Origin: a virus
Taxonomy: Duplodnaviria > Heunggongvirae > Uroviricota > Caudoviricetes
Direction: 5' to 3' (one strand)
DNA length: 64,000 nt
Virus record (IMG/VR): IMGVR_UViG_3300047189_000028
This document shows positions 6,252 to 27,488 of the stretch, one piece after another. Below the pieces are notes generated by a model. The model was given only the letters and a program-made list of their open reading frames with translations. It was not told where the DNA came from and ran no database searches. Position numbers and translations under genes: made by a program. Numbering within the stretch: position 1 is the stretch's first letter; each line of letters opens with the position of its first letter.

Positions 6252-6983
6252 ATGAATAAACGAAAGTCTAAGTACCCACCATATTCGCAAGCTCGTGCTA
6301 GTGCACTAGATTTACAGCTTAATTCCCGTGCTGATTACATCAAGTGGCATAAGGATACAAAATGCCAATACCTCCCTCGTTATCCTGAGCGTGTGTATAA
6401 GGAGTTTGTTTCGTGGAATGATTGGCTTGGGACTGCAAATGTGTTCAAAGGAGATGTTGTTAAGCCAGCGCGTCCTTTCTGGGATGCTGTCAAGTGGGCG
6501 CAGGACCATGCTGCTGTTCATAAGTTAGATACTATGGCTGATTGGTTACTGTGGGTGAAGGAACATGAGGAAGAATTGCCTACCGACATTCCACCCCGAC
6601 CCGATACACGTTATACCGAATGGTCGCAAATAGGGTGGAAGGGATGGTTAGGAACGGATGTTCGTGGACGACTCGCAGCTGCTAAGCAGTCAACAGCTTT
6701 GTTCGCTATTTGTTCTCACCACAACCTTCGTATGCCTGGTAACAAGTTTGCATTGATACAAGCTGAGCAGGGGGAGGCTCAGTTGTTGAATATCCTAAAG
6801 CAGGCAGGCGACTTGCGAGTCGTTCGTTGCTACAAAATGGATAATGAGTTGAAAGAGAAGGTTCACGAACTGTTAGCTCAGTACGGTCGTGACGAAGGGG
6901 ATGGATGGTTCATCCCAAATGTTAACAATGTTCTGTTTGAGCTTGATGGAATGCTTCAGGTGTACCGTGGAAGTGGGATGTAA
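6252..6983 (+). CDS. hypothetical Trp-rich protein (243 aa); lone plus-strand gene inside a minus-strand block
   Basis: ORF track. Repeated Y..W..WLGT motifs, and HNLR followed ~36 aa later by Tyr (weak recombinase-like pattern). Confidence 0.5.
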   Translation: MNKRKSKYPPYSQARASALDLQLNSRADYIKWHKDTKCQYLPRYPERVYKEFVSWNDWLGTANVFKGDVVKPARPFWDAVKWAQDHAAVHKLDTMADWLLWVKEHEEELPTDIPPRPDTRYTEWSQIGWKGWLGTDVRGRLAAAKQSTALFAICSHHNLRMPGNKFALIQAEQGEAQLLNILKQAGDLRVVRCYKMDNELKEKVHELLAQYGRDEGDGWFIPNVNNVLFELDGMLQVYRGSGM

Positions 6984-7117
6984 GTGGGATAGTTGTGGGA
7001 TCAAACTGGGATTGTGTGGGATGCTAGTGGCATGAACCTGAACAAACCTTACAAGACCGTATTGTATGTTCGATAGAGTGGGATAACAGTGGGATCAAAC
7101 TGGGATTGTGTGGGATT
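6974..7117. repeat. two arrays (6+4 copies) of heptamer GTGGGAT/CTGGGAT phased every 11-12 bp, including a 29-bp direct repeat GTGGGATCAAACTGGGATTGTGTGGGAT x2
   Basis: Read directly: copies start at 6974, 6985, 6996, 7007, 7018, 7028 and at 7079, 7090, 7101, 7111. Confidence 0.9.
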
Positions 7118-7430
7118 ACGCAATAGGCAATTGGTCAAATGGGACGAGTATTCCCAATGGATACAGCTTCTTGAACTCCAATGATGCCTTCAATTCAGTA
7201 TCAAATCGCTTTTGATGCTTGAAGAATGAGTAAATCCCCAGATTTTCCACATAGTTCGCGCGGACATAGATCGCCCACTTACCATCAATACCGAGCTTGA
7301 CTGACGCGACTGCCTTTGAATCTAGCATATTTCCCCGAAAAATGACGCCTGAGCTTGGAACACCAGGCGTGGTCACAAATGTAACACTTCCAATACGGGC
7401 ATATTTCAGCCCTAGACGTAGTTGTCTCAC
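7116..7430 (-). CDS. hypothetical protein (104 aa)
   Basis: ORF track. Confidence 0.45.
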   Translation of the reverse strand: MRQLRLGLKYARIGSVTFVTTPGVPSSGVIFRGNMLDSKAVASVKLGIDGKWAIYVRANYVENLGIYSFFKHQKRFDTELKASLEFKKLYPLGILVPFDQLPIA

Positions 7431-7682
7431 CCAAAATGGAGTGAGAGCACGGATATTTAGCTTCCAACAAATTTAGTTTCAGGTCAACCGGAGTGTTGTC
7501 TGTGTTATTTTGGCCGGATGGACGGATCGAAGACACGATCCCACCGTATTATCCCAAAAATTCGTGTTGACTACAACAGACTGCTCCTTTATGGGTGAGG
7601 CAAAAGGTGACGGTCAACAGCGCACACCCGTTGAACAGCACACCAAAGGAGACGATAATGCTATTGTCAGGAACCGAGTGTC

Positions 7683-7750
7683 AATTTTAGAAAATTTGAG
7701 ACAGCGTTCCGGGACTTGCTGGGCTCCCGTTTCGCGGCGTCGGTGGTCTT
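7683..7750. other. conserved intergenic element copy A (AATTTTAGA...ACAGCGTTCCGGGACTTGCTGGGC...)
   Basis: A 24/25-nt near-identical core is shared with 15890..15950. Confidence 0.7.
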
Positions 7751-7774
7751 TCCCTGTTTTTCTATTGTGGAGTG

Positions 7775-7803
7775 ATTATTGCCTGACCTAGTGTTGGGGT
7801 CAA
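7775..7803 (-). promoter_or_regulatory. possible sigma70-like promoter TTGACC-N17-AATAAT
   Basis: rc: TTGACCccaacactaggtcaggcAATAAT; weak -10. Confidence 0.3.
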
Positions 7804-7977
7804 CGTGTCACCGACCGAGCCAGTGCTCGCCGGAATACACTCTGATGCTCTTGTCAATCGCGTATACGACGATTGCAACTGGGTAGAGGACCCACGGAGC
7901 GACGATGACGATCGTCATCGTGATTGTGAACACCACCATTGCGAGTGCAATCCCGGAGTATACCAACAGTCGGAACA

Positions 7978-8250
7978 TCATGAGAGGCGCGGCGGCTTAC
8001 CTATTGTCTGGACCTTCGGCAGCTTGTCGGCAGGTAGCGGGGTGTACACGTCCTTCAGCGCTTCAGCGATCGTTGCCCGCGTATCGGAGGCATCCATCAC
8101 ACCGAGGCTGTTCAGCATTTGGAGTATCTGACCGGCCTGGCTCAGCAGCACGATCGCAAGGACCTTGCTGTCATATTCGCCAGCCATCTCATGGACCTTC
8201 TCGGTAATCTCACGGGTTACCGTGTTGAAGTGTTGCTTTTGAACATCCAT
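7978..8250 (-). CDS. hypothetical protein (90 aa)
   Basis: Internal ATG (MDVQKQH...) with GGAGATAACC RBS. Confidence 0.5.
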   Translation of the reverse strand: MDVQKQHFNTVTREITEKVHEMAGEYDSKVLAIVLLSQAGQILQMLNSLGVMDASDTRATIAEALKDVYTPLPADKLPKVQTIGKPPRLS

Positions 8251-8252
8251 GG

Positions 8253-8477
8253 TTATCTCCGAGAAGTGATTGCAGTATCCAGGGCCCACAACTTCGATGA
8301 AACCGTGCGGAGCTCTTCAGCTTCCCGGGTAGCGTGTTGGGGTGTGGGGCCGTTGCGAGTGCTTTGTAGCTCACTGATCTTCATGTTGATCAGACGATAT
8401 AGCCACCCCAGGTCCTGGTTGTTGAGTACCTTATCGGCTTCGATTGTCAGGCGAACATTTGCCATAGCTTTCCCCAT
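8253..8477 (-). CDS. hypothetical protein (74 aa)
   Basis: ORF track; first gene after the promoter at 8494..8522. Confidence 0.5.
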   Translation of the reverse strand: MGKAMANVRLTIEADKVLNNQDLGWLYRLINMKISELQSTRNGPTPQHATREAEELRTVSSKLWALDTAITSRR

Positions 8478-8493
8478 AGTTCTCCGTGCGTGT

Positions 8494-8522
8494 AGTTTAC
8501 CCTAAACCGAGGTTAAGGTCAA
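8494..8522 (-). promoter_or_regulatory. sigma70-like promoter TTGACC-N17-(TTTAGGG)TAAACT
   Basis: rc: TTGACCttaacctcggtttagggTAAACT. Confidence 0.45.
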
Positions 8523-8710
8523 CTGTGTGCCGCTCTATCCAGGATAGTGCTGGCAAGCTCATCTTCAGGCTTCAGAGCTTTGAACCGGCCGGTAAGCTCA
8601 GCCCGAACATGGTCCGGGAAGAACTTCGCAATGTCGGCTGCGGACATCTCTTCGACGACAATACTCGGTTCCTTCCGACGGTACGTGATGTTCCACTTCG
8701 GTTCAGCCAT
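8519..8710 (-). CDS. hypothetical protein (63 aa, MAEPKWNITYRR...)
   Basis: Start coupled (ATGGCTGA) to an upstream 41-aa membrane peptide ORF (8705..8828, AGGAGA RBS). Confidence 0.4.
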   Translation of the reverse strand: MAEPKWNITYRRKEPSIVVEEMSAADIAKFFPDHVRAELTGRFKALKPEDELASTILDRAAHS

Positions 8711-8837
8711 TGGGGCGTTTCCAATAGTTGCGGCTTGCCCACGCCTTGCCAATACTTTCGATTGCCTCAACGACGATGAGGACGATGAACAGAGTCATCC
8801 ACGGGTGGGCCATACACCAGGTAGTCATTCATTTCTC

Positions 8838-9257
8838 CTAGAGAGCGAGGCGGAGGCCGAGGCGGTAGTTGTGAACCGCATACCCGGTCTCAACACCTAT
8901 TGTAATGTATTCCCACGCCTTGATCAACCCCTTGGGTGCCCCACCATCAACCAGTTCATACGTAACGGCTGCGTGAAGCAGGTCGGTTGCGATGAAGTAG
9001 CCAACGACCTTGGCGTCTGATGGGTGCTTGCCGAGAATGAAGTTCGTTTCCTCGATCTTGCCAGGGTGGTGCTTGATATCAAGCGTCGTCAGCATGTCGA
9101 GGCCCGCGGCAGCGAAGTAGACGTACTCCTCCTTCGGCAGCGACTTCCAGAAGGGTTTGCACCACTGCGTGCACTTGGCTTCAGTGGTTTCGGTTTCCTG
9201 CGCCAGGGCAGCGGATGAGAAGGCAAGCAGCGCAAAAGCTGCGAGTAGATGCTTCAT
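8838..9257 (-). CDS. secreted/periplasmic protein with cleavable signal peptide (139 aa)
   Basis: MKHLLAAFALLAFSSAALAQ...; GGAGG RBS. Confidence 0.6.
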   Translation of the reverse strand: MKHLLAAFALLAFSSAALAQETETTEAKCTQWCKPFWKSLPKEEYVYFAAAGLDMLTTLDIKHHPGKIEETNFILGKHPSDAKVVGYFIATDLLHAAVTYELVDGGAPKGLIKAWEYITIGVETGYAVHNYRLGLRLAL

Positions 9258-9445
9258 TTGATTTCCTCCAAAAGTTCAATCGTGATGCGGACCCTGAAGG
9301 CGCGGTCGCCGAGGGTATTTCCTTTCGTAGCAGCCCGGGCGGCCTTCACCGTGATGATCTCCGGGAACTTGTGGTAGTCCTGGAAGAAGCCACCACGCTT
9401 CGTCATGATGACGGCCTTCTTCGAGTTGTCCAGAATGATGCTCAT
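9254..9445 (-). CDS. hypothetical protein (63 aa)
   Basis: ORF track; overlap coupling. Confidence 0.45.
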   Translation of the reverse strand: MSIILDNSKKAVIMTKRGGFFQDYHKFPEIITVKAARAATKGNTLGDRAFRVRITIELLEEIK

Positions 9446-10299
9446 GCGCGCCTCCGCAGTTGGGCGTAGTAAGTCGAAGCCGTGGTTTCCTTCATCCCGG
9501 CTTCCACGGCGCGGACGATGAACTGTCCACGGGTGAGGTGGCCGCCATACCGCGCCATGATCCCGACGGCGATGTCCTTGGAGCTCCGCGTGCCATCCAT
9601 AACCTTCTGCTTGAGCGCAGGCGGCAGCTTGCTCGGCGGAATGTGCTCGTCAGTGAACCGTACCGGGGTCTTCTGCTGAGCGGCCTCGCGCGCCTGTTCG
9701 TACGAGACCTGGCCGCGGTTCGCGATGAATCTGAGCTGACCGCGCTCACGACCGCAGCGCTTGCACGTGTAGAACGACTTGCCCGGGTTCATCAGCTCAT
9801 ACCGGCGCTGCTTGTTATGGCGCACGCTGCTGACAAACAGCGACTTGTTGCAGCACTTGCACTGGTACTCGAACTTCGTCTTGACGCGCACCTGGGCGTT
9901 CGTCGTGTCCATGTCGTGCGTGCGCTGCGGTTCCACACCGAAGATGTTCCGCATGATGTGCTTCCACGACGGGCCGTGAATGCTGCGCTTGGCGCGGCGC
10001 ATGCGGCCGTAGCGATCAAACCGGATGCCCTCGCTCTGGTTGTCACCATTCGCGGTGTCAATGCAGTGAGCGACTTCGTGGGCGATCGTCTCGCCGAAGT
10101 ATTCCTCGGGGTTCTCCATGAGGAGAATCGGGTTGAAGTCGACCGTATGCGTTCCCCGTGCAACGCCGGCCGTACGGCCGCGGAGGTCGAACTTGACGAG
10201 GGGAACGTTGTAGTGGCGGCCGGTCTTCTTCGTAGCCAAGGCAACGTAGCGCTTGACTTCGTTCTCGACGCGAGCTCGCATTTCAACTGGTACGTGCAT
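9442..10299 (-). CDS. SprT-like zinc metalloprotease with C-terminal zinc ribbon
   Basis: HEVAHC (HExxH) in the ETIAHEVAHCID context typical of SprT. CxxC...CxxC follows. GAGGAG RBS. Confidence 0.6.
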   Translation of the reverse strand: MHVPVEMRARVENEVKRYVALATKKTGRHYNVPLVKFDLRGRTAGVARGTHTVDFNPILLMENPEEYFGETIAHEVAHCIDTANGDNQSEGIRFDRYGRMRRAKRSIHGPSWKHIMRNIFGVEPQRTHDMDTTNAQVRVKTKFEYQCKCCNKSLFVSSVRHNKQRRYELMNPGKSFYTCKRCGRERGQLRFIANRGQVSYEQAREAAQQKTPVRFTDEHIPPSKLPPALKQKVMDGTRSSKDIAVGIMARYGGHLTRGQFIVRAVEAGMKETTASTYYAQLRRRA

Positions 10300-10364
10300 C
10301 TCTGTGCTCCTCTTGACGATGGAGACATTTTACCCCAAACCGGGGTCAACGCAACGGGTGTGTC

Positions 10365-10631
10365 CTACTGCTCCAGGACAAGAGCGAGGATTGGGCGATC
10401 GGTCTCTTCGTCGTGGATCTGAATGTAATCCACGCTTTCGCCCATGAAGTAGACGTCTTCGATCGTTAGGTTGTTCAGGAAGCCATTGGCGTTGAGAACA
10501 TCCAGGGTGAGCTGGTCATCCTCTGCGACGGCGAGATCGACGTCGATGCTGCCGACCTGGTGCTGGTCATTGACTTCCCAGCTACCGTTACGGTCCTGGA
10601 TCACATCGAGAGTGGTGACAGCGAATCGCAT
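10365..10631 (-). CDS. acidic hypothetical protein (88 aa)
   Basis: Internal ATG (MRFAVTT...) with AGGAGA RBS. Confidence 0.45.
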   Translation of the reverse strand: MRFAVTTLDVIQDRNGSWEVNDQHQVGSIDVDLAVAEDDQLTLDVLNANGFLNNLTIEDVYFMGESVDYIQIHDEETDRPILALVLEQ

Positions 10632-10687
10632 TTGAGTCTCCTGAAACGATGCGGGGAGGATACACCCTCCCCGCACCTGAGGTCAAC

Positions 10688-11746
10688 TCAGTTCAGCTTG
10701 CCGAAGAACGCCTTCTCGTGGTTGTCGAAGCTCGCATCACGCGGCTTGACAAAACGCGAAGCGTGCTGGGTCAGATCCTGATGGTTGAAGATGAAGTCAT
10801 TCGCCATCCGATCCAGGGCCAGTGCACTTGAACCTTCCGTCTCGCGCGTGTGCGTGCGGACCTCAGTGACGAGGTTGTACGCATCGAACAGTGAGAGATG
10901 GCCAGGAACCTGCGCACTCAGGCGCTTGTCCTTGAACACATTCTCACGATACACATTACCCATGTGCATCGACGGATCAGCCACCTGGATGATCGTACGA
11001 AGCTGGTCGTGCGCATCTTCACCCTGCATGGTCTGCTCGAAACGCTTACGAGCGTGGCTGGCAATCGCCTGAAGCTCACTCACCGTAGCGTACTGATCAC
11101 CCATGCCAGCGAGACGCTTCTTGACCATCCCATCGACCTTGTTCTGGATCTGAGCGTTCGCGATGTCGAGATGCTCCTCCCAGCGATTGATCAACGGGAT
11201 CTTCGTGTTCAGGAACGAAGTCACACCACGCATGCCGTTCTCACAGATCAGACGCCACAGCATGAACGCGCTGTTGACCGTCTTGACGAACGGGTTCCAT
11301 GAGAAGAGCAGTTCGGACTTGAACTCACCACCGTCGTTGTACTCAGGCACGACGATCTTCTGCTTCGACCACGACGTGCCGAGCGTGTAAGCGTGCGACG
11401 TCAGGTTGTCCTGAAGAGTCGTCGACAGCTCCTTCGCCTCGACAATGCCGATCACCTTGACGAGCTGCTTGATGCTCTCGTCTTCGTGAACGAAGCCAGC
11501 GTAGTTCCCGTAGCGGAAGTCAACCAGGACTCCCTCGACGAAGAAATACGTGCCACCACTCATCAGGGCTTCCAGCGCGCTGACATCCATCGTCTCGAGG
11601 TTCCGAGAAACCCGCGACTCCGGATCGAACACGTGCTTGTAGGTGTTGTTGACGACGATCGTCGCAACAGGAAAGTTCTTCGAGTTCCTCGAAGCCGTAA
11701 CGCGCACCTTCGCGTTACGAATCAGCTCATACCGTAACTTATGCAT
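10688..11746 (-). CDS. hypothetical protein (352 aa)
   Basis: Internal ATG (MHKLRYELIRN...) with GAGGAG RBS, downstream of the promoter at 11802..11830. Confidence 0.55.
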   Translation of the reverse strand: MHKLRYELIRNAKVRVTASRNSKNFPVATIVVNNTYKHVFDPESRVSRNLETMDVSALEALMSGGTYFFVEGVLVDFRYGNYAGFVHEDESIKQLVKVIGIVEAKELSTTLQDNLTSHAYTLGTSWSKQKIVVPEYNDGGEFKSELLFSWNPFVKTVNSAFMLWRLICENGMRGVTSFLNTKIPLINRWEEHLDIANAQIQNKVDGMVKKRLAGMGDQYATVSELQAIASHARKRFEQTMQGEDAHDQLRTIIQVADPSMHMGNVYRENVFKDKRLSAQVPGHLSLFDAYNLVTEVRTHTRETEGSSALALDRMANDFIFNHQDLTQHASRFVKPRDASFDNHEKAFFGKLN

Positions 11747-11801
11747 TTGAACTCCTCGTGTGCTGCCACAGCACGTTGGTTTAGATTCATCTGACCAGGA
11801 G

Positions 11802-11830
11802 AGTATCCCAGATCTGACCCTAGAGGTCAA
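11802..11830 (-). promoter_or_regulatory. sigma70-like promoter TTGACC-N17-GATACT
   Basis: rc: TTGACCtctagggtcagatctggGATACT. Confidence 0.45.
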
Positions 11831-11833
11831 CGC

Positions 11834-12061
11834 CTACAGTTTGTCCCTGAGGAGCAGATTGAGGTCGGCCAAAGCGTCCGTATTAACGATAAGGTCGGCG
11901 ATCGCCTCAGCATCTTCCCTGCTGAGTATGAGATCGTATTGATCGATCTTCTTGCGAATCAGTGCAGCAGTATCGACCACGAGGTCCGCAGTGATTGCGT
12001 CCTCCTCAGCTTCGTGGTACGTGCCGTCCTTTGCCTTCCACATTGTGATTCGTTCAGCCAT
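11834..12061 (-). CDS. hypothetical protein (75 aa)
   Basis: ORF track. Confidence 0.45.
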   Translation of the reverse strand: MAERITMWKAKDGTYHEAEEDAITADLVVDTAALIRKKIDQYDLILSREDAEAIADLIVNTDALADLNLLLRDKL

Positions 12062-12062
12062 G

Positions 12063-13262
12063 TCAGACTCCTATTGCGTCTCGAACGGGACCAGTCTCGC
12101 CATTTTCAGCTTCGCGGGCAAGACGACTGGCCTTGAGAAAGTCGTCCAGCGACAACGTCTTGATCTGAGCCTTCGCCTCAGCTAGCGTCATTCTCTTGAC
12201 CGAAGTCAAGTCCTGACCACTCTTGAAGATCGACTCAGGCTTGAATGCACCCTTACGATACACACCCTTCGTCGTCAAGTGCTTCAGAAGAGTCCGAAGC
12301 GCGATGTACGAGTCCAGCGTCTCAACACGACGAGTCATTCCGATTAGCCAAGCGATGGCGATCGTAAACTTCAAGCCAGTGTCGAATGTCTGCTTCACTT
12401 CGTTCGCGATGTTCGGCAGGTTGACAGTGCGAAGCTGAATCATCATGTCGTCGAGGCCAAGCGGCTCAATCGAATCGTAGCCGAACACATCAGACAACAC
12501 ACGACCAGCTTTCAGTGCGAATCCAAGATTGACGCACAGATGGTCGTCGACCTTGTCGAATTGAGTTTTGTCAGCTTCCTGGTGAATGTACGTGACCGAC
12601 GAATCATTCTCGACCTCGTCGTCGTTGCGAGTATCACCCTTCGCAGTCAACTGACGCTGGCCGATGTTGGTGAGCGTCTTCCAGATCGGCGGAGTCAATG
12701 CCATCTCACCAGTCTTCGGATAGAACGCAAGACATACTCGCTGTTCAAGTTCAGGCTTGTCGCCGAGAGCTGCGAGCTTGATCGCTTCGACCTTGACCTG
12801 GCGAAACTTCTTGTCACTTGACAGGACCTCAGCTTCTTTGAGGTTCTCTTCCGAAACGTGATACACGTATGAGCCATCGATGTACCAGTTACGATCCATC
12901 ATCAAGCTCTTGAGAATCTTGTCGGAGTTGACTTGTGAATCCGACTGCCACGTCACCTCGCCGAAAAGACCTTCCGTCTTCTCGCGACCGAGATTGCCGA
13001 GTGGATGACGTTCGAGACACACGACGTGGTCTTCGTAGAACGTCACAGCAGTGAGGACAGGCTTGATGTACTTCGTGATCCGATACTTCTTTGCGAAGTG
13101 CCGAGTGAGGTGGTACGGAATTCGGATCTTGCCGAACACTTCCTTGCCAGCCTGCTTGGAACGCTTGTCATCCAGGAACGTCAGCATGCCACCAAGAGCA
13201 CCACTGACCATCTTGATCTGCATGTGTTTCGTCACGAGCTTGGTAGCGTCGAACCGAATCAT
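12063..13262 (-). CDS. hypothetical protein (399 aa)
   Basis: ORF track; GGAGAGG RBS. Confidence 0.55.
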   Translation of the reverse strand: MIRFDATKLVTKHMQIKMVSGALGGMLTFLDDKRSKQAGKEVFGKIRIPYHLTRHFAKKYRITKYIKPVLTAVTFYEDHVVCLERHPLGNLGREKTEGLFGEVTWQSDSQVNSDKILKSLMMDRNWYIDGSYVYHVSEENLKEAEVLSSDKKFRQVKVEAIKLAALGDKPELEQRVCLAFYPKTGEMALTPPIWKTLTNIGQRQLTAKGDTRNDDEVENDSSVTYIHQEADKTQFDKVDDHLCVNLGFALKAGRVLSDVFGYDSIEPLGLDDMMIQLRTVNLPNIANEVKQTFDTGLKFTIAIAWLIGMTRRVETLDSYIALRTLLKHLTTKGVYRKGAFKPESIFKSGQDLTSVKRMTLAEAKAQIKTLSLDDFLKASRLAREAENGETGPVRDAIGV

Positions 13263-13331
13263 TAGTATATCCTCTCCGTTACTGTAGGAGCATCTTAGTT
13301 GAAATCGCGATCAGGGTCTAGCGTGTCACCG

Positions 13332-13577
13332 TTACTGTGACAGTGAACTCCTGGTGATTTTAACGCGAATGTTGCCGGTGGTATCAAATTCACCACCTGG
13401 TTCAACATTTAAGCCAAAACAGTAGGCTGTGTGTAGCGCAGATTTGATCTGTGCAATCACTTGCTGTTTGGCCTTCTGATCCTTTTTGCTCGTTCCATAC
13501 GAGAAGAACGGCACAGCGACGTCGATCTTGACGTTGACCACCGTTGCCTTATCTTTCTTGGGTTGATACTTCTTCAT
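13332..13577 (-). CDS. hypothetical protein (81 aa)
   Basis: ORF track. Confidence 0.45.
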   Translation of the reverse strand: MKKYQPKKDKATVVNVKIDVAVPFFSYGTSKKDQKAKQQVIAQIKSALHTAYCFGLNVEPGGEFDTTGNIRVKITRSSLSQ

Positions 13578-13600
13578 GATCGTCTCCGTACGTTATCAGG

Positions 13601-14749
13601 TTAGCGTCTGACCGGCGGGCCTCGAACGATCGTGTGTTCGACTTTCATCTCGTTGTGGTGGCTGACATAATCGAACTCCTGTTCGATCCAGTCACCGTGT
13701 CGCTTTGAGATCAACCGATGTCTCTCTGGAGTGCCGACAACGACAGTTGTGTCGAGGTTTCGACCACTGAGAGGGTTGACAAGCTCCCACACGCGACAAT
13801 CGCTGTCCGGACGTGAAGCACGACCAATCACCTGGTTCAGTTGTGGATACGAACCATACGACCTGCCGAGGAAGACATCAGTGCAGCCCTTAACATCAAC
13901 GCCCTCATTGATCTTGTTGCAGTTCAGCAGGAACTGGATCTCACCACGACTGAAGCGATTCAACGTCTCATCCAACTCTTTGTTGGATTGAGTTAGGATT
14001 GCGATGGATTTCTTCTTCATCTTCGAGAGGTACTCGTTGACTTCAACGACTTCCTTCTTCGTGCGGAAGAACATCATCGTCTGACCGAACTCGTTGCCGA
14101 ATCGGTCAAGGATCATCTTCGTCACAGGAACCTTATCCTGGTGAGGAGTGTCAACGATTGTGTTCAGATACGTCGGAGCCAACCAGCCTTCAGCGACACA
14201 CTGTTCGCGACTGATCGGAGCGACAATCGACTCGAACTTAATCAGCATGCCGTCTGCACGATCAGGAGTCGCAGTCAGGCCGAGAATCGGCTTCTTGCCG
14301 AGTCGGTCCAAGCGGAACTGAATCGTCTGCATTGCCTCGTGGTGTGCTTCATCGATACAAGCGACGTCCCACACGAGACCTTTCGGAATGTCCTGAAATG
14401 CTGAGTGAGCGAAGAACTTGACGTTCGACGCATCAGCGTACGCTTCTTCAGCCTGAGTCAACAGTCTGTGCTTGTGAGCGACAAACAGAAGACGAAGGTC
14501 CTTGCCAGGCTTGATTCCAAGCGCTTTGCGAATCCGATCGGACGAAAAGATCAGACCAGACGTGACAGTCTTGCCAGCGCCAGTCGGCAGTTCGACGAGG
14601 ATACGCTTGACACCACGTTCGAGAGCGTCTTCCACCTGATTGCAGGCAGCCTTCTGGTACCAGCGAATCTCCTTCTCGCCGTACATGATGACTTCGTCTT
14701 CACCACCATCAATGGCTTCGAAGTCTTCATTCTCGATTTCCTGGCTCAT
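13601..14749 (-). CDS. SF2 DEAD/DEAH-box helicase
   Basis: Walker A ELPTGAGKT, DEAH box IDEAHH, and motif LGLTATP. Start at the MSQEIEN ATG (GGGAGA 6 nt upstream). Confidence 0.7.
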   Translation of the reverse strand: MSQEIENEDFEAIDGGEDEVIMYGEKEIRWYQKAACNQVEDALERGVKRILVELPTGAGKTVTSGLIFSSDRIRKALGIKPGKDLRLLFVAHKHRLLTQAEEAYADASNVKFFAHSAFQDIPKGLVWDVACIDEAHHEAMQTIQFRLDRLGKKPILGLTATPDRADGMLIKFESIVAPISREQCVAEGWLAPTYLNTIVDTPHQDKVPVTKMILDRFGNEFGQTMMFFRTKKEVVEVNEYLSKMKKKSIAILTQSNKELDETLNRFSRGEIQFLLNCNKINEGVDVKGCTDVFLGRSYGSYPQLNQVIGRASRPDSDCRVWELVNPLSGRNLDTTVVVGTPERHRLISKRHGDWIEQEFDYVSHHNEMKVEHTIVRGPPVRR

Positions 14750-14773
14750 TAACATCTCTCCCGTTTGACGATA

Positions 14774-14802
14774 GTGGGATTATACTGGGATTCGAGTTGG
14801 AT
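14774..14802. repeat. phased heptamer array GTGGGAT-CTGGGAT-GTTGGAT (11-bp spacing) just upstream of the helicase start
   Basis: Read directly. Confidence 0.8.
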
Positions 14803-14815
14803 GCAACCGTCTGCC

Positions 14816-15100
14816 CTACTGGAGCGGGACCTCGTGGATCACCCACCAATCGTTCGGAAACTCGTAGCTGGTGTTGCGCAGGTTGACCTGGACGACAGGC
14901 GAACCCGCCTCCTTGAAGTCGACCTCGGTGATCTCGTACTGCTCTTCGGGATCATCCGCGGCATGCTCTGCAGCACATGCCTTGGCATGTGCGATTGCCT
15001 TGTCCCGCGTAGTGAACGCAGCACAGAAGCTATCGTGGAGGTCTGAGCAGCCGTACTCGATGATCCAGATAGTGGGATGCGAGTGGGATTCAGTAGTCAT
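14816..15100 (-). CDS. hypothetical protein (94 aa)
   Basis: Start MTTESHSHPTIW. The GTGGGAT repeats fall in codons 4-10; no alternative in-frame ATG. Confidence 0.4.
   Translation of the reverse strand: MTTESHSHPTIWIIEYGCSDLHDSFCAAFTTRDKAIAHAKACAAEHAADDPEEQYEITEVDFKEAGSPVVQVNLRNTSYEFPNDWWVIHEVPLQ
15071..15088. repeat. two phased GTGGGAT heptamers
   Basis: Read directly. Confidence 0.8.
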
Positions 15101-15322
15101 TGTTTTCTGCCCAGTTGCGGATGCCTTGCTGATCTCGCTCGTTGATCTCGCGGATCTCACCACCGACCTCGATTCCACCGTTCCACTCGATGAACGTCAG
15201 GGAGTTGCAGTACTCCTTTCGGTCCACCTTGATGGAGACATGGCACCACGTCGAGCCGTCCGACTCGGTCCCGAGGACCAGGTCGTAGTGCCTGTACTTG
15301 CCAGCGACTTCCTTGACTGTCA
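15090..15322 (-). CDS. hypothetical protein (77 aa, MTVKEVAGKYRHY...)
   Basis: Start ATG at 15322, immediately 3' of three ATCCCAC repeats in the mRNA sense. Confidence 0.45.
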
Positions 15323-15324
15323 TA

Positions 15325-15353
15325 GTGGGATCCTTGTGGGATGTGAGTGGGAT
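15325..15353. repeat. three phased GTGGGAT heptamers (11-bp spacing)
   Basis: Read directly. Confidence 0.85.
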
Positions 15354-15820
15354 CAGCGCGACATCGCGCGGAATTCCTTGAGCAGGTCCGCGCAAACATC
15401 CGCCCGTTCGAGGTTCTTCTCAACGGCCTCACGGATCTCCACGAGCTGGGCAGGAGTGGCACCGTTGGCGTACTTCTTGTCGTAGAACACCTCAGTGACA
15501 GCCTCATTGACCTGGTCGTTGAGGAAGTCCAGGCCCTTGTCGATCACCTCGATGCCTGTGGCGTCGAAGTAAATCGTCTCACCGACCTTCGCCTTCAGCT
15601 CTTTCGCGGCGATGACGAACCGCGTGGCGAACCCAACGCGACGGTTCATGTCCACGATGTCAGCGAGCGTCTCGTCACGGCGCGCCTGAGACACTTTGCA
15701 TGTGATGCTCTGGGCGAGTTCGACAATCATGTCGCCTTCGAAATCCCTGACGAACTCAACGGCCTCGATGAGCAACGCGATCGCAATGGGCGAACGCGGC
15801 GTGTACTGAGCACTACGCAT
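15353..15820 (-). CDS. hypothetical protein (155 aa)
   Basis: Internal ATG (MRSAQYTPRS...) with CAGGAGACAGCT RBS; first gene after the promoter at 15849..15876. Confidence 0.5.
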   Translation of the reverse strand: MRSAQYTPRSPIAIALLIEAVEFVRDFEGDMIVELAQSITCKVSQARRDETLADIVDMNRRVGFATRFVIAAKELKAKVGETIYFDATGIEVIDKGLDFLNDQVNEAVTEVFYDKKYANGATPAQLVEIREAVEKNLERADVCADLLKEFRAMSR

Positions 15821-15848
15821 AGCTGTCTCCTGTGTTAACGATTCGAGC

Positions 15849-15876
15849 AGTATACACGTCACCCTATTGAGGTCAA
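15849..15876 (-). promoter_or_regulatory. sigma70-like promoter TTGACC-N16-TATACT
   Basis: rc: TTGACCtcaatagggtgacgtgTATACT. Confidence 0.45.
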
Positions 15877-15889
15877 CGGCTAGTCCATA

Positions 15890-15950
15890 AGGAATTTTAG
15901 ACAACGTTCCGGGACTTGCTGGGCCACCGCGTCTCCGCGACTTCGAAGCC
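15890..15950. other. conserved intergenic element copy B (AATTTTAGACAACGTTCCGGGACTTGCTGGGC...)
   Basis: Near-identical to 7683..7750. Confidence 0.7.
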
Positions 15951-16045
15951 ATTATCGCGTTTTGGCTGGTACAGCTCAACGCCTCACCCGACAGGTTGAC
16001 CTCGAGTCTATAATCATTATGATGGCACCAACTTTCGGAGGCTCT

Positions 16046-16513
16046 ATGAACTTTGGACGCTGCAATCTTCCCTTCTCGACAATCGCTGGTATGGACAAGG
16101 CTATCGCATTCCTGCTGAGCCTTCCCAAGCCGACGCGTGGCTATCGCAGTTCGTACGCTGAAGAGTCTCCGACATACATCAAGGCCGACAAAGACCTCAT
16201 CTGCTCTGACTTCAACATCAAGGCGGACAAATGGGTTCGCCTTGTTCAGGACGCCCTCGACCATGCTGGTATCAAATACGAGCCAGTAGAGTCGCTGAAG
16301 TCAGGGCAATACACCAACGACGTGTTCATGATCGGTGACTACGCTGTATATGTGTGTTGCCTCAAGCGTGGTGGCAGAGGTGTCCTTGTTTGCGACAAGC
16401 AGCATGTCGCTTACATGCGTGATGATGACAAGACGACTCGTGCCAAGACCTCTGAGCGCGCGAAGGTCCTCTCGACACTCACCATTGAACAGAGACGCGC
16501 GTTGGGCATATAA
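16046..16513 (+). CDS. hypothetical protein (155 aa)
   Basis: ATG with GGAGGCTCT RBS; first gene of the plus-strand block. Confidence 0.5.
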   Translation: MNFGRCNLPFSTIAGMDKAIAFLLSLPKPTRGYRSSYAEESPTYIKADKDLICSDFNIKADKWVRLVQDALDHAGIKYEPVESLKSGQYTNDVFMIGDYAVYVCCLKRGGRGVLVCDKQHVAYMRDDDKTTRAKTSERAKVLSTLTIEQRRALGI

Positions 16514-16539
16514 TGCCTACACTGGTTCAGGAGAAGCAA

Positions 16540-16752
16540 ATGCCCGACTACCGCAAACCGATTCACTTTCGCAAGACGGATACCGATCCTCAGGTCGATA
16601 ACCGCGTCGGCGCAGTGCTTCAGTTCGAGTCGACCGATCGCGCACGCATCCAGGCCTGGCTTGACCGCGCTGCGGCAGCTGGCATCATCAAGAAGACGGT
16701 TGCCCGGCAGTACGATGCCAACATGGGCGGACCGGTTTGGTACATCCCGTAA
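16540..16752 (+). CDS. hypothetical protein (70 aa)
   Basis: Conserved leader GTTCAGGAGAAGCAAATG. Confidence 0.5.
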   Translation: MPDYRKPIHFRKTDTDPQVDNRVGAVLQFESTDRARIQAWLDRAAAAGIIKKTVARQYDANMGGPVWYIP

Positions 16753-16761
16753 GGAGTTGAC

Positions 16762-17184
16762 ATGAAGCACGCAACGATCCTCTCTCTTCGCGCCGCTACG
16801 GAGACGCAGCTGGCAGCAATTGCCCTGAAGATGGCCGAGGTGCACCCGACGACGTTCGAGAAGCTGCTCGTCGAGACCGTCGCGTTGACGCCGCCGCTTC
16901 GCACGTTCAACGTGAAGTGGGGTAATGACGCGTTCCAGGGGTTCGACGCCCACCTGACGAATGATCAGCTCCGCAAGTTCGCCGCGCGCAATGGCCCGAA
17001 CGACAAGGTCACGTGCATCAAGATGATTCGCGAAGAGCTCGGTATTGGTCTGAAGGAGGCGAAGGAGCTCAGCGAGAACCTCGAGTTCATGAAGGCGATC
17101 AACGCCGGCTGGATTTACCCCGGGACGAGCCAGACAATCGATGGCCGCTCGTACGAAGCCGTCTACGGCCACAGCCGTTACTAA
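16762..17184 (+). CDS. protein with ribosomal L7/L12 C-terminal-domain-like segment
   Basis: VTCIKMIREELGIGLKEAKELSENLEF closely parallels the bL12 CTD ([27 protein letters not shown]). Confidence 0.5.
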   Translation: MKHATILSLRAATETQLAAIALKMAEVHPTTFEKLLVETVALTPPLRTFNVKWGNDAFQGFDAHLTNDQLRKFAARNGPNDKVTCIKMIREELGIGLKEAKELSENLEFMKAINAGWIYPGTSQTIDGRSYEAVYGHSRY

Positions 17185-18406: not shown

Positions 18407-18586
18407 CGTGGCTGAGAAGAAGTTGGAAATGACGGTTGGTGATCTCATCAAGCTGCTCGCTGGTGTGAACCCCAATGCGTTGATCGTCCACCAGGACGAA
18501 AATAGCGAGGAAGCAACTCCGCTCGTCGTTGATCAGATTGGAAAGACACGAGTTGTTCTGACATGGCATCCTGACTACACCCGATA
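18407..18586 (+). CDS. small hypothetical protein (GTG start)
   Basis: AGGAG 7 nt upstream of GTG; alternative ATG at 18428. Confidence 0.3.
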
Positions 18587-18598: not shown

Positions 18599-18778
18599 GT
18601 GGCAAAGACGAATCGTCGTCCGAGTGATAAGCTCGAACGGAAGCAGCGCCTGGCTCAACGCCCTGTCCGCCAGGAAGATGAATTCAACGACCAGGATTGG
18701 CTCCGCGCGCTCGATGAGAGTGACGAAGAAGTCGCTGACGAGATCACGAGTCCGATCACCAACGCAGCCTATTGACCA
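18599..18778 (+). CDS. small acidic protein (GTG start, 59 aa)
   Basis: AAAGGAAATTCAAGTG. Confidence 0.3.
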
Positions 18779-18824
18779 TAAGGTCATAGAGAGCTAAGAT
18801 ACCCTCAACAGTTAGGAGAAGCCA

Positions 18825-19394: not shown

Positions 19395-19937
19395 ATGGCA
19401 AGCGGAACACCTCTCAAACGAATCTTCAATGAAGCAGGAGAACTGACACACAAGGAATGCCGAAAGTGTGATCAAATGCTCCCTATCAATAATTTCTATC
19501 ACAAATACACATCCACTAGGTATCAACACGATAAGTCAAACAATCGTTGCATTCCTTGTCAAAAGATCCAATGGCATGAGCAAGCGAAGAATCCCGAATC
19601 TCGCAAGCGTTGGTTGTTAAGCCGAATCCGTACTAAATGTAAGAAGGAAAGACTCCCATTCGATTTAACTATCGAAGACTTGGCAATACCAACGCACTGT
19701 CCTATTTTTGGAATACCTCTCGCCTTCGGTGTAAAGACTCCGTCTTCATATCGAGAAAAGAAAGGACAGGTGACGGTTCCTGATGACAGTCCGTCTGTTG
19801 ACAGAATCGTCCCTGAACTTGGGTACGTCAAGGGCAATATAGTAATTGTCAGCTATCGTGCTAATCTAATCAAGACAAACGCTAGCGTGACAGAGTTGAT
19901 TAAGGTGGCTGAGTTCTATAAGATGCTTACATCGTAA
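19395..19937 (+). CDS. HNH homing endonuclease (HNH_3 type) with N-terminal zinc finger
   Basis: C-terminal SPSVDRIVPELGYVKGNIVIVSYRANLIKTN matches the phage HNH_3 signature. CRKC...CIPC zinc finger. The gene is AT-rich relative to the GC-rich surroundings. Confidence 0.65.
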   Translation: MASGTPLKRIFNEAGELTHKECRKCDQMLPINNFYHKYTSTRYQHDKSNNRCIPCQKIQWHEQAKNPESRKRWLLSRIRTKCKKERLPFDLTIEDLAIPTHCPIFGIPLAFGVKTPSSYREKKGQVTVPDDSPSVDRIVPELGYVKGNIVIVSYRANLIKTNASVTELIKVAEFYKMLTS

Positions 19938-19951: not shown

Positions 19952-20266
19952 GTGATGTCCAGATCAGAAAGAATAATTGAGGCGCTGGGGGGTGTAATGG
20001 CTACCATACTACTCATCACATTGTGCTTCGTGTGTTTTGATGCGGCGTACTCACCAACCACATTCGAAGGGTTGGTTGTCCTATTTGAAGGCGCCAAGTT
20101 AATCTTCTTCGAGATCGTAGGGTTTGTCATTGTGGGTTTGATTCTTGGAATGGTTTGCAACGGATATGCAAATGTTTCAAGGAAGATTAAAGCAATGATT
20201 TTGGAGTATAATCAATGGGGACATAACGCTGGACTCTCGTGGTGGAAGTATAAGCTATTTGGTTGA
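19952..20266 (+). CDS. membrane protein (104 aa)
   Basis: ORF track; two TM helices. Confidence 0.45.
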   Translation: MMSRSERIIEALGGVMATILLITLCFVCFDAAYSPTTFEGLVVLFEGAKLIFFEIVGFVIVGLILGMVCNGYANVSRKIKAMILEYNQWGHNAGLSWWKYKLFG

Positions 20267-21321: not shown

Positions 21322-21554
21322 AACGCAGGATCACCGACTACTATCATGTTGACGACGGCGTTGTCGTCCTCAACAAGACGACTGCCAATGGTGTGCCGTA
21401 CAACGAGGAGAAGTTCCTTGCTGAATGTGCAAACCTCGAGGCACTGCTCGCTCAGCACAGAGCCAAGGCAATCGCCGAAGGTAAGTGGCCGCCGACACCC
21501 AGCCGCTTCGTTGATCATAACGTCAGAAAAGAGGATGCTCTCCCCATCAAGTAG
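21318..21554 (+). CDS. hypothetical protein (78 aa)
   Basis: ATGA overlap coupling. Confidence 0.45.
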   Translation: MKRRITDYYHVDDGVVVLNKTTANGVPYNEEKFLAECANLEALLAQHRAKAIAEGKWPPTPSRFVDHNVRKEDALPIK

Positions 21555-21563
21555 GAGACCTCT

Positions 21564-22652: not shown

Positions 22653-22679
22653 TGGGATGACAGTGGGATCCAACTGGGA
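22651..22679. repeat. three phased heptamers GTGGGAT-GTGGGAT-CTGGGAT upstream of a plus-strand gene
   Basis: Read directly; 12- and 11-bp spacing. Confidence 0.85.
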
Positions 22680-22693
22680 TAGGAGTGACATTC

Positions 22694-24584: not shown

Positions 24585-24830
24585 ATGAGTGGTGTGATCG
24601 CAACTGGTCCGGTCGGCACGAAGATTTTCCAGCTCCTGGCTGTCAAAGGTGCACTGCGCCTCGAGAGCCTCGGGATGAAGCACAGCAAGATCCGCAGCCT
24701 GCGCAAGGTATGGGCACTCGAGATGGGGCTGAAGGCGAATGCTAAGTACCCGGAGATCCTTGCGAAGATCGAAGAGAAGCTCACCGAGCTGAAGAACGAT
24801 CCGCGCGGGACAGGGATCGAGGCACTGTAG
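24585..24830 (+). CDS. hypothetical protein (81 aa)
   Basis: Conserved leader CTCCCTACCAAGTGAGGAGAACGAATATG. Confidence 0.5.
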   Translation: MSGVIATGPVGTKIFQLLAVKGALRLESLGMKHSKIRSLRKVWALEMGLKANAKYPEILAKIEEKLTELKNDPRGTGIEAL

Positions 24831-24881
24831 ACCCTAAGGTGGGGAGGGCGTATGCTCTCCCCATCAGTTAGGAGATCAGCC

Positions 24882-27432: not shown

Positions 27433-27433
27433 G

Positions 27434-27462
27434 TTGACCCTAACGTAGGAACACAGTATACT
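27434..27462 (+). promoter_or_regulatory. sigma70-like promoter TTGACC-N17-TATACT feeding the conserved leader
   Basis: TTGACCctaacgtaggaacacagTATACT. Confidence 0.55.
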
Positions 27463-27488
27463 CTCCCTACCAAGTGAGGAGACGGACA

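What the first reader, a model, noticed from the sequence alone, without database searches (positions are those of the whole stretch)
7683..7750. A ~45-bp intergenic element present twice (7683-7750 and 15890-15950)
Both copies share AATTTTAGA followed by ACA(G/A)CGTTCCGGGACTTGCTGGGC (24/25 identical) and a GC-rich tail (CCCGTTTCGCGGCG / CACCGCGTCTCCGCGAC). Both lie in promoter-containing gaps next to TTGACC -35 boxes, and copy B sits at the divergence point between the left minus block and the plus block. Such exact conservation in non-coding DNA suggests a regulator binding site, a small RNA or a recombination hotspot shared by two early control regions.
Basis: seen in the sequence. Interest (0 to 1): 0.6.

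Follow-up and report, generated by a model that had tools for sequence, protein, structure and literature searches.

The report
Conserved promoter-driven phage RNA motif, twice
The repeated ~50-base element is real and is kept almost unchanged in a dozen distantly related uncultured large phages. It looks like a new small structured RNA (a variable hairpin next to an invariant 20-base stretch) made from its own promoter at both ends of the phage's replication gene block, and its function is still unknown.

Summary
There are two direct copies, 7695-7744 and 15895-15947, with an identical 20-nt core (7705-7724 = 15905-15924). No chance match occurred in shuffles, and the window holds no third copy.

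It is neither a coding duplication nor an att site. The element is conserved at the same two positions in related large phages whose neighbouring proteins are only about 47-49% identical. It also occurs in two AT-rich contigs.

Read on the window's minus strand, almost every copy has the same layout:
- a sigma70-type promoter immediately upstream;
- then a hairpin whose sequence differs between copies but stays paired (13 different stems, all 4 pairs with compensatory changes, 97% paired);
- then the invariant core CCAG-NNN-GUCCC-N-GAAC;
- then YGUCU and an A/U-rich tail.

A second promoter follows at a fixed distance, either in tandem (TSS +81 to +84) or convergent (TSS +58/59). The element has no Rfam match, and no searchable paper contains its sequence.

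Best reading: a new promoter-proximal structured RNA module, in two paralogous copies flanking the replication operon. Its single-stranded core would dock a conserved partner. I could not decide whether it acts as a free small RNA, as a nut/put-like leader, or at the DNA level.

The parts
7695..7744 (-). Copy A of the RNA module. Minus-strand layout: flank 7744-7742; GACG 7741-7738; hairpin CCG-CGAAA-CGG within 7737-7727; linker 7726-7725; core 7724-7705; C 7704; UGUC 7703-7700; A/U tail 7699-7695.
   Evidence: Covariance model hit of 55.3-55.4 bits; sequence read; segment parse checked.
15895..15947 (-). Copy B of the RNA module. Minus-strand layout: GAAG 15944-15941, which is the predicted +1 of its promoter; hairpin UCGCG-GAGA-CGCGG 15940-15927; linker 15926-15925; core 15924-15905; U 15904; UGUC 15903-15900; tail 15899-15895.
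   Evidence: Covariance model hit of 54.5 bits; sequence read; segment parse checked.
7775..7803 (-). Dedicated upstream promoter of copy A (TTGACC-17-AATAAT). Predicted start is about 7768, followed by an A/C-rich leader of about 27 nt (CACAAUAGAAAAACAGGGAAAGACCACC) before GACG.
   Evidence: Promoter scan. The orthologous promoter is present in 9 of 10 A-type units and visible in the alignment.
15951..15979 (-). Dedicated upstream promoter of copy B (TTGAGC-17-GATAAT). Predicted start is 15944, the first base of the module.
   Evidence: Promoter scan. Conserved in L037, L042, L043 and L049.
7631..7659 (+). Convergent promoter (TTGAAC-17-GATAAT) aimed back through copy A. Predicted start is about 7666, so the two transcripts would overlap by about 100 nt.
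   Evidence: Promoter scan. The same promoter sits at the same distance (TSS +58/59 from the core start) in L037, L040, L045, L049 and L050, and at +51 in the AT-rich L171.
15849..15876 (-). Tandem downstream promoter (TTGACC-16-TATACT) of the first gene of the replication block. Its TSS is about 82 nt after the core start, and a conserved (A)TGGGCAG-like box lies just upstream of its -35.
   Evidence: Promoter scan. The same spacing (+81 to +84) is found in 7 units; alignment.
7808..15820 (-). Minus-strand gene block bracketed by the two copies. It includes a superfamily II helicase (13601-14755) and an SprT-like protein (9442-10299).
   Evidence: Coding-potential scores and family hits. The block is syntenic in L037, L040 and L043-L050.
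7116..7328 (-). 70-aa gene downstream of copy A. It is found in the related genomes that carry the element and not in the more distant IMG/VR relatives that lack it.
   Evidence: tblastn against all loci. The ortholog L037 18977-19186 fixes the start codon.

Best explanation
The two copies are paralogous members of a previously undescribed structured RNA module. It is made on the window's minus strand by host sigma70 RNA polymerase from a promoter that belongs to each copy.

The transcript carries three parts in order:
- a short hairpin whose sequence is free to vary;
- an invariant, apparently unpaired 20-nt core, 5'-G(C/U)CCAG-NNR-GUCCC-(G/U)-GAACG-3';
- YGUCU and an A/U-rich tail. The segment CGACG...YGUC may close the module as a weak helix.

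I commit to an RNA-level mechanism. The short, promoter-proximal non-coding RNA would present its invariant core as a docking site for a highly conserved partner. That partner is most likely a protein or the transcription/translation machinery, not a base-pairing target. The module would thereby regulate early expression around the replication gene block: copy B at its head, upstream of the operon promoter, and copy A at its tail, inside a zone of convergent transcription.

Shown: the repeat, its conservation, the promoter geometry and the hairpin covariation. Inferred: that it is transcribed, that the core is single-stranded, and that a partner binds it. Open: whether it acts as a free small RNA or in cis on the polymerase that makes it.
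For: 1. Conservation. Both copies are conserved at syntenic positions in L037 and L040, although the adjacent 155-aa protein is only 47-49% identical. In all, 17 copies come from the window and 10 related contigs. Two further copies sit as GC-rich islands in AT-rich contigs L171 and L102.

2. Promoters. A same-strand sigma70-like promoter precedes 15 of the 19 units at a fixed distance. The predicted TSS is -17 to -21 from the core start in B-type units and -33 to -51 in A-type units.

3. Hairpin.
- 14 of 16 distinct sequences have an anchored helix of at least 4 bp, against a mean of 1.0 (maximum 6) in 2000 shuffles.
- There are 13 different stem sequences.
- The stem is 97% paired, and all 4 pairs show changes on both sides.
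- 20 cells over the whole tested structure carry a change on both sides; 0 of 500 shuffles reach that count, and sliding the partners collapses pairing to 31-59%.
- The result holds on real sequences aligned to the model.
- RNAalifold predicts this hairpin independently.

4. Strand. There are 24 G-U/U-G cells against 1 A-C cell. On the opposite strand, pairing would fall from 89% to about 71%.

5. Core. The variable core positions differ between copies A and B of the same genome. This points to a common partner rather than A:B pairing. The three invariant blocks are interrupted by freely varying positions, which is unlike a base-pairing seed.

6. Cassette behaviour. The units behave as independent cassettes. 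In L042 and L046-L048 they stand in tandem with other promoter-plus-short-RNA units, one of which has a clear intrinsic terminator.
Against: - There are no transcript data, so transcription is inferred from consensus promoters only.
- Single-sequence folding is no better than shuffles on either strand, with z from -0.84 to +0.63 on the module alone, -1.37 to +1.56 on the longer stretches. The minimum-free-energy fold of copy B does not contain the comparative hairpin.
- The closing helix has only one-sided changes and 18% unpaired cells. RNAalifold does not predict it.
- No intrinsic terminator follows either copy, so the 3' end of a free small RNA is undefined.
- The fixed distance from the core to the downstream promoter would also fit a DNA-binding site.
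- Copy A is predicted to be transcribed from both strands.
- Many of the 17 copies are orthologues, so cell counts overstate the number of independent events.
Confidence: 0.55

Rival explanations
1. A cis-acting processive antitermination or polymerase-modifying leader, working like lambda nut, HK022 put or the rrn leader. The nascent hairpin plus the conserved linear element would load a factor onto, or directly alter, the polymerase that has just left the upstream early promoter. That polymerase could then read through downstream signals into the 8-kb replication operon (copy B) or beyond the end of the block (copy A).
For: - There are exactly two copies per genome, each just downstream of an early-type sigma70 promoter.
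- The layout is a structurally conserved hairpin of free sequence followed by an invariant linear block. This is the boxB-boxA order of rrn leaders (the rrn comparison is from my own knowledge).
- Copy B heads a 16-gene operon.
- The phage carries rIIA/rIIB and appears to rely on host polymerase. In T4-type phages, delayed-early read-through is mechanistically unresolved (my own knowledge).
Against: - The core has no resemblance to any boxA (CUCUUU-type) sequence.
- The hairpin loops differ between the two copies of one genome, unlike boxB.
- The operon has its own promoter between the element and the first gene.
- At copy A the transcript runs into a convergent promoter rather than a long operon.
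- No terminators to be overcome were detected nearby.
Confidence: 0.2
2. A DNA-level operator: an asymmetric 20-bp site for a conserved phage or host DNA-binding protein that coordinates the promoters on either side. It would act as a roadblock for the upstream promoter and as an activator or repressor site about 72 bp upstream of the tandem promoter, or between the two convergent promoters.
For: - The spacing from the core to the next promoter is constant: TSS +81 to +84 in seven units and +58/59 in six.
- The core is invariant even in AT-rich genomes.
- Thermodynamic folding gives no signal.
- The phage clearly uses other short DNA motifs, such as TGGGAT arrays with an 11-bp period.
Against: - It does not explain why an adjacent inverted repeat keeps its pairing while changing sequence and loop length.
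- It does not explain the G-U bias.
- It does not explain why a dedicated promoter is kept immediately upstream of every copy.
- The site is not palindromic or repeated, as most operators are.
Confidence: 0.15
3. An origin-of-replication transcript. The promoter-proximal RNA would serve as an R-loop or primer RNA, as at T4 oriF/oriG/oriE or ColE1 RNA II. At copy A the convergent promoter would supply an antisense regulator like ColE1 RNA I, and the TGGGAT arrays would act as iterons.
For: - The copies flank the replication module.
- Copy A has a conserved antisense promoter giving about 100 nt of overlap.
- Two iteron-like TGGGAT arrays with an 11-bp period lie 580-770 bp downstream of copy A, at 6974-7116, and are conserved in relatives.
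- The phage belongs to the rII-bearing lineage, where transcript-primed origins are known (the T4 origin comparison is from my own knowledge).
Against: - Copy B and seven other units have no antisense promoter.
- Priming does not need an invariant 20-nt block plus a covarying hairpin.
- TGGGAT arrays also occur in front of several genes inside the block, so they look like regulatory sites rather than origin-specific iterons.
- No pronounced AT-rich unwinding element is present.
Confidence: 0.07
4. A recombination or module-boundary sequence: direct repeats that let the 8.2-kb replication module be excised, exchanged between phages or deleted.
For: - The copies are direct repeats with an identical 20-bp core bracketing one gene module.
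- Copy A sits where base composition shifts from about 47% to about 57% GC.
- The position of the B-type copy differs in some relatives (L042, L043).
Against: - No integrase or recombinase family hit was found among the 22 neighbouring proteins scanned.
- There are no tRNA genes.
- The cores of the two copies differ at 2-5 positions within other genomes.
- The module is syntenic and retained in all relatives.
- Recombination does not explain the promoters or the hairpin covariation.
Confidence: 0.03

Closest known systems
Lambda-type nut sites and the rrn antitermination leader (boxA/boxB)
   Same: - Two near-identical copies per phage genome.
- Each lies in the RNA just downstream of an early sigma70 promoter.
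- Each is built from a hairpin plus a conserved linear block.
- The hairpin-then-block order matches rrn leaders.
- The linear block is conserved across phages, as a host-factor site would be.
   Different: - The core shares no sequence with boxA.
- It is 20 nt long with three invariant blocks, not a 9-12-nt boxA.
- The hairpin loop and stem are not the same in the two copies of one phage.
- A second promoter, tandem or convergent, follows at a fixed distance.
- No N-like protein was identified.
HK022 putL/putR polymerase-binding RNAs
   Same: - Two paralogous RNA elements sit downstream of the two early promoters.
- They are recognised mainly by structure plus a few conserved bases.
- No dedicated protein is required. 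That would fit the conservation seen here across very different phages.
   Different: - put has two stem-loops of about 65-70 nt in total. Here there is one short hairpin and a long unpaired conserved block.
- There is no sequence similarity.
- Activity was not tested.
Phage and plasmid sense/antisense control RNAs (ColE1 RNA I/II, P22 sar, P1 c4, lambda oop)
   Same: At copy A and in six other genomes, conserved convergent promoters would give fully complementary transcripts overlapping by about 100 nt across the element.
   Different: - Copy B and the tandem-type units lack the antisense promoter yet keep the same module.
- The structure and G-U pattern favour one strand.
- No kissing-loop architecture is evident.
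Small riboswitch aptamers (one or two helices around a highly conserved junction)
   Same: - Covarying helices with free sequence surround an invariant unpaired stretch.
- The element is promoter-proximal and about 50 nt long.
   Different: - No expression platform (terminator or RBS-sequestering helix) follows.
- The downstream gene has its own promoter.
- There is no match to any Rfam riboswitch.

Membership tests
Any Rfam 15 RNA family | Covariance-model match at or near the gathering score | tested here: not met
   No hit at gathering score in the window or in four related loci. No hit overlaps either copy, even at E <= 10. The only listed hit, CRISPR-DR41 at 14 bits and E 6.5, lies at 15855-15880, outside the element.
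Lambda-type nut site | Lies in the transcript shortly downstream of an early promoter, two copies per genome | tested here: met
   Predicted promoters at 7803-7775 and 15979-15951; exactly two copies. Transcription itself is inferred, not observed.
Lambda-type nut site | boxA sequence (CGCUCUUA / UGCUCUUUAACAA type) | tested here: not met
   Direct reading of all 17 copies: no CUCUUU-type block. The boxA consensus is quoted from my own knowledge.
Lambda-type nut site | boxB hairpin identical in both copies of a phage, with a GNRA-like loop recognised by N | tested here: not met
   Window copy A has CCG-CGAAA-CGG and copy B has UCGCG-GAGA-CGCGG. Loops range from 4 to 8 nt with no consensus.
HK022 put RNA | Two adjacent stem-loops of about 65-70 nt | tested here: not met
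   Only one hairpin is supported comparatively.
HK022 put RNA | Factor-independent antitermination in cis | not testable with these tools
   This needs transcription assays.
Intrinsic terminator / terminator-bounded small RNA gene | GC-rich hairpin directly followed by a U-tract | tested here: not met
   No terminator-like site in 6800-8600 or 15200-16600. The tail after the module is A/U-rich (UAAAAUU) but not a U-tract. Only L102 has U6.
Base-pairing (seed-type) small RNA | Contiguous conserved seed with a complementary target | tested here: inconclusive
   The invariant bases are split by freely varying positions. The window holds no complementary site beyond chance, 18 found against 14 expected. 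Host targets could not be searched.
attL/attR of an integrated element | Identical core in direct orientation plus a recombinase, often next to a tRNA | tested here: not met
   The core is identical, but there is no tRNA and no integrase or recombinase family hit among 22 neighbouring proteins. The element is conserved as a pair in relatives.
Antisense-controlled primer RNA (ColE1-like) or T4-type transcript-primed origin | Convergent promoter giving an antisense RNA over the 5' part of the primer transcript | tested here: inconclusive
   Met at copy A and six orthologous or analogous units; not met at copy B and seven other units.
   The flanks do not align, the neighbouring proteins are unrelated, and the overlapping ORF 7510-7791 has no coding signal or homologue. 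The 10-codon mini-ORF 7658-7690 is not conserved: in L043 it stops after 2 codons.

The most novel reading that the evidence does not exclude
The module is a new class of RNA that acts directly on bacterial RNA polymerase or on another universal host machine. It could be a put-like antiterminator or anti-pausing element, or a small ligand- or protein-sensing aptamer. Large rII-bearing phages would use it to time expression of their replication genes. The invariant 20-nt core would be conserved across GC-rich and AT-rich phages because its target is a conserved host surface.
Probability: 0.15. Interest if true: 0.8.

Novelty: new variant of a known kind. Interest (0 to 1): 0.6.

Why it matters
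Large uncultured phages are almost unexplored at the level of regulatory RNA. This element is a compact, easily synthesised motif of about 50 nt. Its core is conserved more strongly than any neighbouring protein, it has a defined promoter context, and it brackets the replication genes.

If it binds RNA polymerase, a Nus-type factor or another host protein, it would be a new handle on how phages that rely on host polymerase schedule early and delayed-early genes. That question is still open even for T4. If it is a free small RNA, it adds a new family to the very short list of conserved phage non-coding RNAs. Either way, it gives a covariance model that can be used to find and classify this phage clade in metagenomes.

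Tried and rejected
- **tRNA fragment or att site.** ARAGORN finds no tRNA and there are no recombinase hits.
- **Known RNA family.** Rfam finds nothing.
- **Relatives among cultured phages.** No nucleotide match in INPHARED in near or distant mode. The helicase is under 28% identical to any cultured phage.
- **16-mer hits in IMG/VR (L001-L022).** Their flanks show these are chance matches inside unrelated sequence.
- **IMG/VR contigs found through the helicase (L023-L035, about 60% identity).** They lack the element by regex, nhmmer and the covariance model, and they lack the 70-aa gene.
- **GTDB genome scan.** Nearly all hits are chance matches within GC-rich coding sequence. Only L102 looks real.
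- **L180.** The match lies in coding sequence, so it is chance.
- **Protein-coding reading.** ORF 7510-7791 and the mini-ORF 7658-7690 have no coding signal, no homologues and are not conserved.
- **Antisense to 16S rRNA around positions 1375-1395.** I recalled a resemblance, but the invariant blocks GUCCC and CCAG would mismatch the universal 16S sequence, so I dropped it (own knowledge, not a tool result).
- **Sigma54 promoter.** The GG/GC spacing is wrong on both strands (direct reading).
- **DGR TR/VR repeat, CRISPR repeat, known small ribozymes.** There are no adenine-specific differences, no array and no Rfam match.
- **A:B antisense pairing as the reason for conservation.** Within other genomes the two cores differ at 2-5 positions without co-variation.
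- **RNAalifold on a plain MAFFT alignment.** It gave no structure because the loops were misaligned. I solved this with a loop-trimmed seed (A5) and model-based realignment (A6).
- **Literature search by sequence.** Only unrelated primer matches came back.

Full report
**1. The observation**

The two sites exist as described.
- The longest gapless alignment is 7693-7739 against 15893-15939, same strand, 83% identical over 47 nt.
- The 20-nt core CGTTCCGGGACTTGCTGGGC is identical at 7705-7724 and 15905-15924.
- A 21-mer search allowing three mismatches finds only these two places, and none in 100 dinucleotide-preserving shuffles.
- Similarity stops within about 10 nt on one side and about 25 nt on the other.
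- The small proteins next to the two copies are unrelated, so this is not a duplicated coding segment.
- In copy A the 9-mer AATTTTAGA is tandemly duplicated (7684-7692, 7693-7701).

**2. Context**

The window comes from an uncultured large phage.
- It has no nucleotide match in the cultured-phage collection.
- Its helicase is under 28% identical to any cultured phage protein but 59-67% identical (41-54% in two more distant loci) to proteins on IMG/VR contigs of 33-350 kb.
- It carries rIIA and rIIB.
- A codon-usage score places a continuous minus-strand block from 7808 to 15820. The block includes the helicase and an SprT-like protein.
- Copy B lies in the divergent gap at the head of this block. 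Copy A lies about 65 nt past the stop codon of its last gene.
- The segment 8000-30000 is richer in GC than its surroundings.

**3. Conservation**

The protein next to copy B has relatives of only 47-49% identity. Fetching their contigs (L037, L040) showed the same gene order. Both copies of the element are nearly unchanged at the same two positions.

Eight more contigs reached through helicase homologues of 74-83% identity, plus one JGI contig found by pattern (L042), raised the set to 17 copies. More distant IMG/VR relatives (L023-L035) have neither the element nor the 70-aa gene that lies next to copy A.

Two further copies occur in AT-rich contigs, where the GC-rich core stands out:
- L171, a 102-kb IMG/VR contig;
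- L102, a 1.6-kb contig binned with a Bacteroidetes MAG.

All other pattern hits in public collections were chance matches in coding sequence. With filters off, a covariance model finds exactly two copies in the window, at 55.4 and 54.5 bits; the next hit is 10 bits.

**4. Anatomy on the minus strand**

All related loci were fetched in the orientation of the window's minus strand. In that orientation every unit reads, in order:
- a sigma70-type promoter, often GTTGACCCTAA-N-GATAAT;
- a short leader;
- CGA(C/A)G;
- a hairpin;
- a 1-3-nt linker;
- the core G(C/U)CCAG-NNR-GUCCC-(G/U)-GAAC(G/A);
- one base, then YGUC(U);
- an A/U-rich tail.

In B-type units the predicted start is the first base of the module (15944 in the window). 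In A-type units an A/C-rich leader of about 25-35 nt beginning CACAAUA comes first.

A simple promoter scan over all 19 units gave the following.
- It finds the upstream same-strand promoter in 15 units, with the TSS at -17 to -21 (B-type) or -33 to -51 (A-type) from the core start.
- A second promoter follows at a fixed distance.
- That second promoter is either tandem (TSS +81 to +84; window B, L037B, L047B, L049B, L046A, L047A, L048A) or convergent (TSS +58/59; window A, L037A, L040A, L045A, L049A, L050A; +51 in L171).
- In the window these are 15876-15849 (tandem, the promoter of the first block gene) and 7631-7659 (convergent).

**5. Structure**

Single sequences do not fold better than shuffles on either strand. 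RNAalifold on a plain MAFFT alignment found nothing because the variable loops were misaligned.

I parsed the 17 sequences by hand and verified the parse against the real sequences. Nearly every copy has a 4-5-bp hairpin starting right after CGA(C/A)G and ending 1-3 nt before the core (copy A has 3 bp; L047A's is offset by one base). There are 13 different stem sequences, and loops of 3-8 nt with no consensus.

A shuffle control, which counts only helices starting right after CGA(C/A)G, supports this: 14 of 16 distinct segments have such an anchored helix of at least 4 bp, against a mean of 1.0 and a maximum of 6 in 2000 shuffles.

Results on a loop-trimmed, gapless alignment (A5; counts):
- the hairpin is 97% paired, and all four pairs show changes on both sides;
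- across the whole tested structure 20 cells carry a double change, and 0 of 500 shuffles reach the observed values;
- sliding the partners by 1-3 columns lowers pairing to 31-59%.

The same holds on the real sequences aligned to the model (A6). RNAalifold on A6 predicts exactly this hairpin and nothing else.

The possible closing helix GACG/YGUC is 81-82% paired but shows only one-sided changes (G-C to G-U) and many A-G mismatches. I treat it as tentative.

G-U and U-G pairs (24 cells) far outnumber A-C (1 cell), so the minus strand fits better. On the plus strand pairing would drop from 89% to about 71%.

**6. What the core is not**

- It has no Rfam match, even at E = 10.
- It is not coding (the mini-ORF is not conserved).
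- It is not a tRNA piece.
- It is not next to a recombinase.
- It has no complementary site elsewhere in the window beyond chance.
- Within a genome, the two cores differ at the variable positions without co-variation. Examples: L040 has GCCCAGTAGGTCCCTGAACG and GTCCAGCAAGTCCCGGAACG; L049 differs at five positions. Conservation is therefore not maintained by A:B pairing.
- The 13 invariant bases fall into three blocks separated by freely varying positions. That pattern suits recognition by a protein, or a tertiary fold, better than a base-pairing seed.

**7. Interpretation**

Three things together point to a transcribed, structured RNA module on the minus strand:
- a dedicated promoter is kept in front of every copy;
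- a hairpin keeps its pairing but not its sequence;
- an invariant block sits next to that hairpin.

The units behave as self-contained cassettes.
- They occur at the head or at the tail of the replication block.
- They are followed by another promoter, so the downstream gene does not depend on them.
- In L042 and L046-L048 they stand in arrays with other promoter-plus-short-RNA units, one of which has a clear terminator.

I therefore favour a short promoter-proximal non-coding RNA that presents its core to a conserved partner.

Three alternatives remain open:
- a nut/put-like element that acts in cis on the transcribing polymerase;
- a DNA-level operator, which would explain the fixed promoter spacing but not the hairpin covariation;
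- an origin transcript with antisense control, suggested by the convergent promoter at copy A and the nearby TGGGAT arrays, but not applicable to copy B.

A recombination site is unlikely.

**8. Novelty and limits**

Nothing in Rfam 15 matches, and no searchable paper contains the sequence. The closest analogues work alike in outline (two promoter-proximal copies, a hairpin plus a conserved block), but they fail every sequence or structure membership test.

The limits of this analysis:
- there are no expression data;
- the alignment has 17-19 sequences, many of them orthologous;
- only one 4-bp helix has covariation support;
- the RNA's 3' end, its partner and its effect are unknown.

Noticed in passing
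6974-7022, 7079-7116, 14775-14791, 15073-15089, 15326-15353, 22653-22680 (+ strand); 7538-7556 (- strand): Arrays of 2-5 TGGGAT boxes with an 11-bp period (58 boxes against 27 expected). Inside the minus block they sit directly upstream of start codons, reading ATCCCAC(T) on the coding strand. Two arrays fill the convergent gap 6974-7116. The same ATCCCACT arrays occur at the same places in L037 and L040. They are probably binding sites of a conserved phage DNA- or RNA-binding regulator, or iterons.
   Followed up: partly
18771-18819, 21510-21558, 24827-24875, 27433-27481, 28027-28075, 28345-28393 (+ strand); also 24553, 25696, 27457: A family of six or more promoter-plus-leader cassettes (GTTGACC..TAAGGT..TATGCTCTCCCCATCA.GTTAGGAGA). 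The conserved leader could pair CUCUCC with the GGAGA Shine-Dalgarno sequence, which would be an SD-sequestering hairpin.
   Followed up: no
7329-7807 (- strand), especially 7524-7542 and 7548-7576: The whole 480-bp non-coding region after copy A is conserved in L037 and L040. It contains another promoter-like site (TTGTAG-17-GATAAT, 7576-7548) followed by a conserved hairpin GGATCG-TGTCTT-CGATCC (7542-7524), and further GTTGACC boxes at 7612-7618 and 7482-7488. This looks like a cluster of short transcription units.
   Followed up: partly
L042 (minus strand) 590-410; L045 17100-17370; L040 17800-18100: Other candidate small RNA genes lie next to the element in relatives. In L042 there is a promoter, then about 110 nt with a long terminal stem, then a clear intrinsic terminator. 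In L045 and L040 there is a roughly 250-nt unit with a tRNA-like T-arm (GGTTCAAA(T/C)CC) and a terminator. ARAGORN (L040) and Rfam give no hit for any of them; ARAGORN was not run on L042 or L045.
   Followed up: partly
L046 17700-17760, L047 ~18460-18520, L048 ~19990-20050: A third unit type starts GGTTGCGGTGCCTCA. In L046 it contains GGGCAGGTCCGGAACAAC, a diverged echo of the core. It follows the A-type copy in tandem, so the core may belong to a wider paralogous family.
   Followed up: no
8000-30000: A 22-kb segment with 50-57% GC lies between flanks of 37-51% GC (mostly about 44-48%). Copy A sits at its left edge. The segment holds the replication block and the plus-strand block with the conserved promoter cassettes. 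This may be a mosaic module of different origin.
   Followed up: no
40088-43525 (- strand); 50563-51495; 51482-52426; 19395-19937: rIIA and rIIB homologues, a QueE-like radical SAM gene, and two HNH/endonuclease VII-type nuclease genes. Together these place the phage among large rII-bearing (T4-like lineage) phages with possible 7-deazaguanine DNA modification.
   Followed up: partly
16762-17184 (+ strand): A phage protein matches the C-terminal domain of ribosomal protein L7/L12 (27 bits, just above the Pfam cut-off). It is conserved in most of the related contigs examined, next to the divergent region that holds copy B.
   Followed up: no
60161-60208: A perfect-looking 24-bp tandem duplication (TGTCGCTCGACGAATAATCATTTG x2, 96% identical) in the early-gene region.
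   Followed up: no
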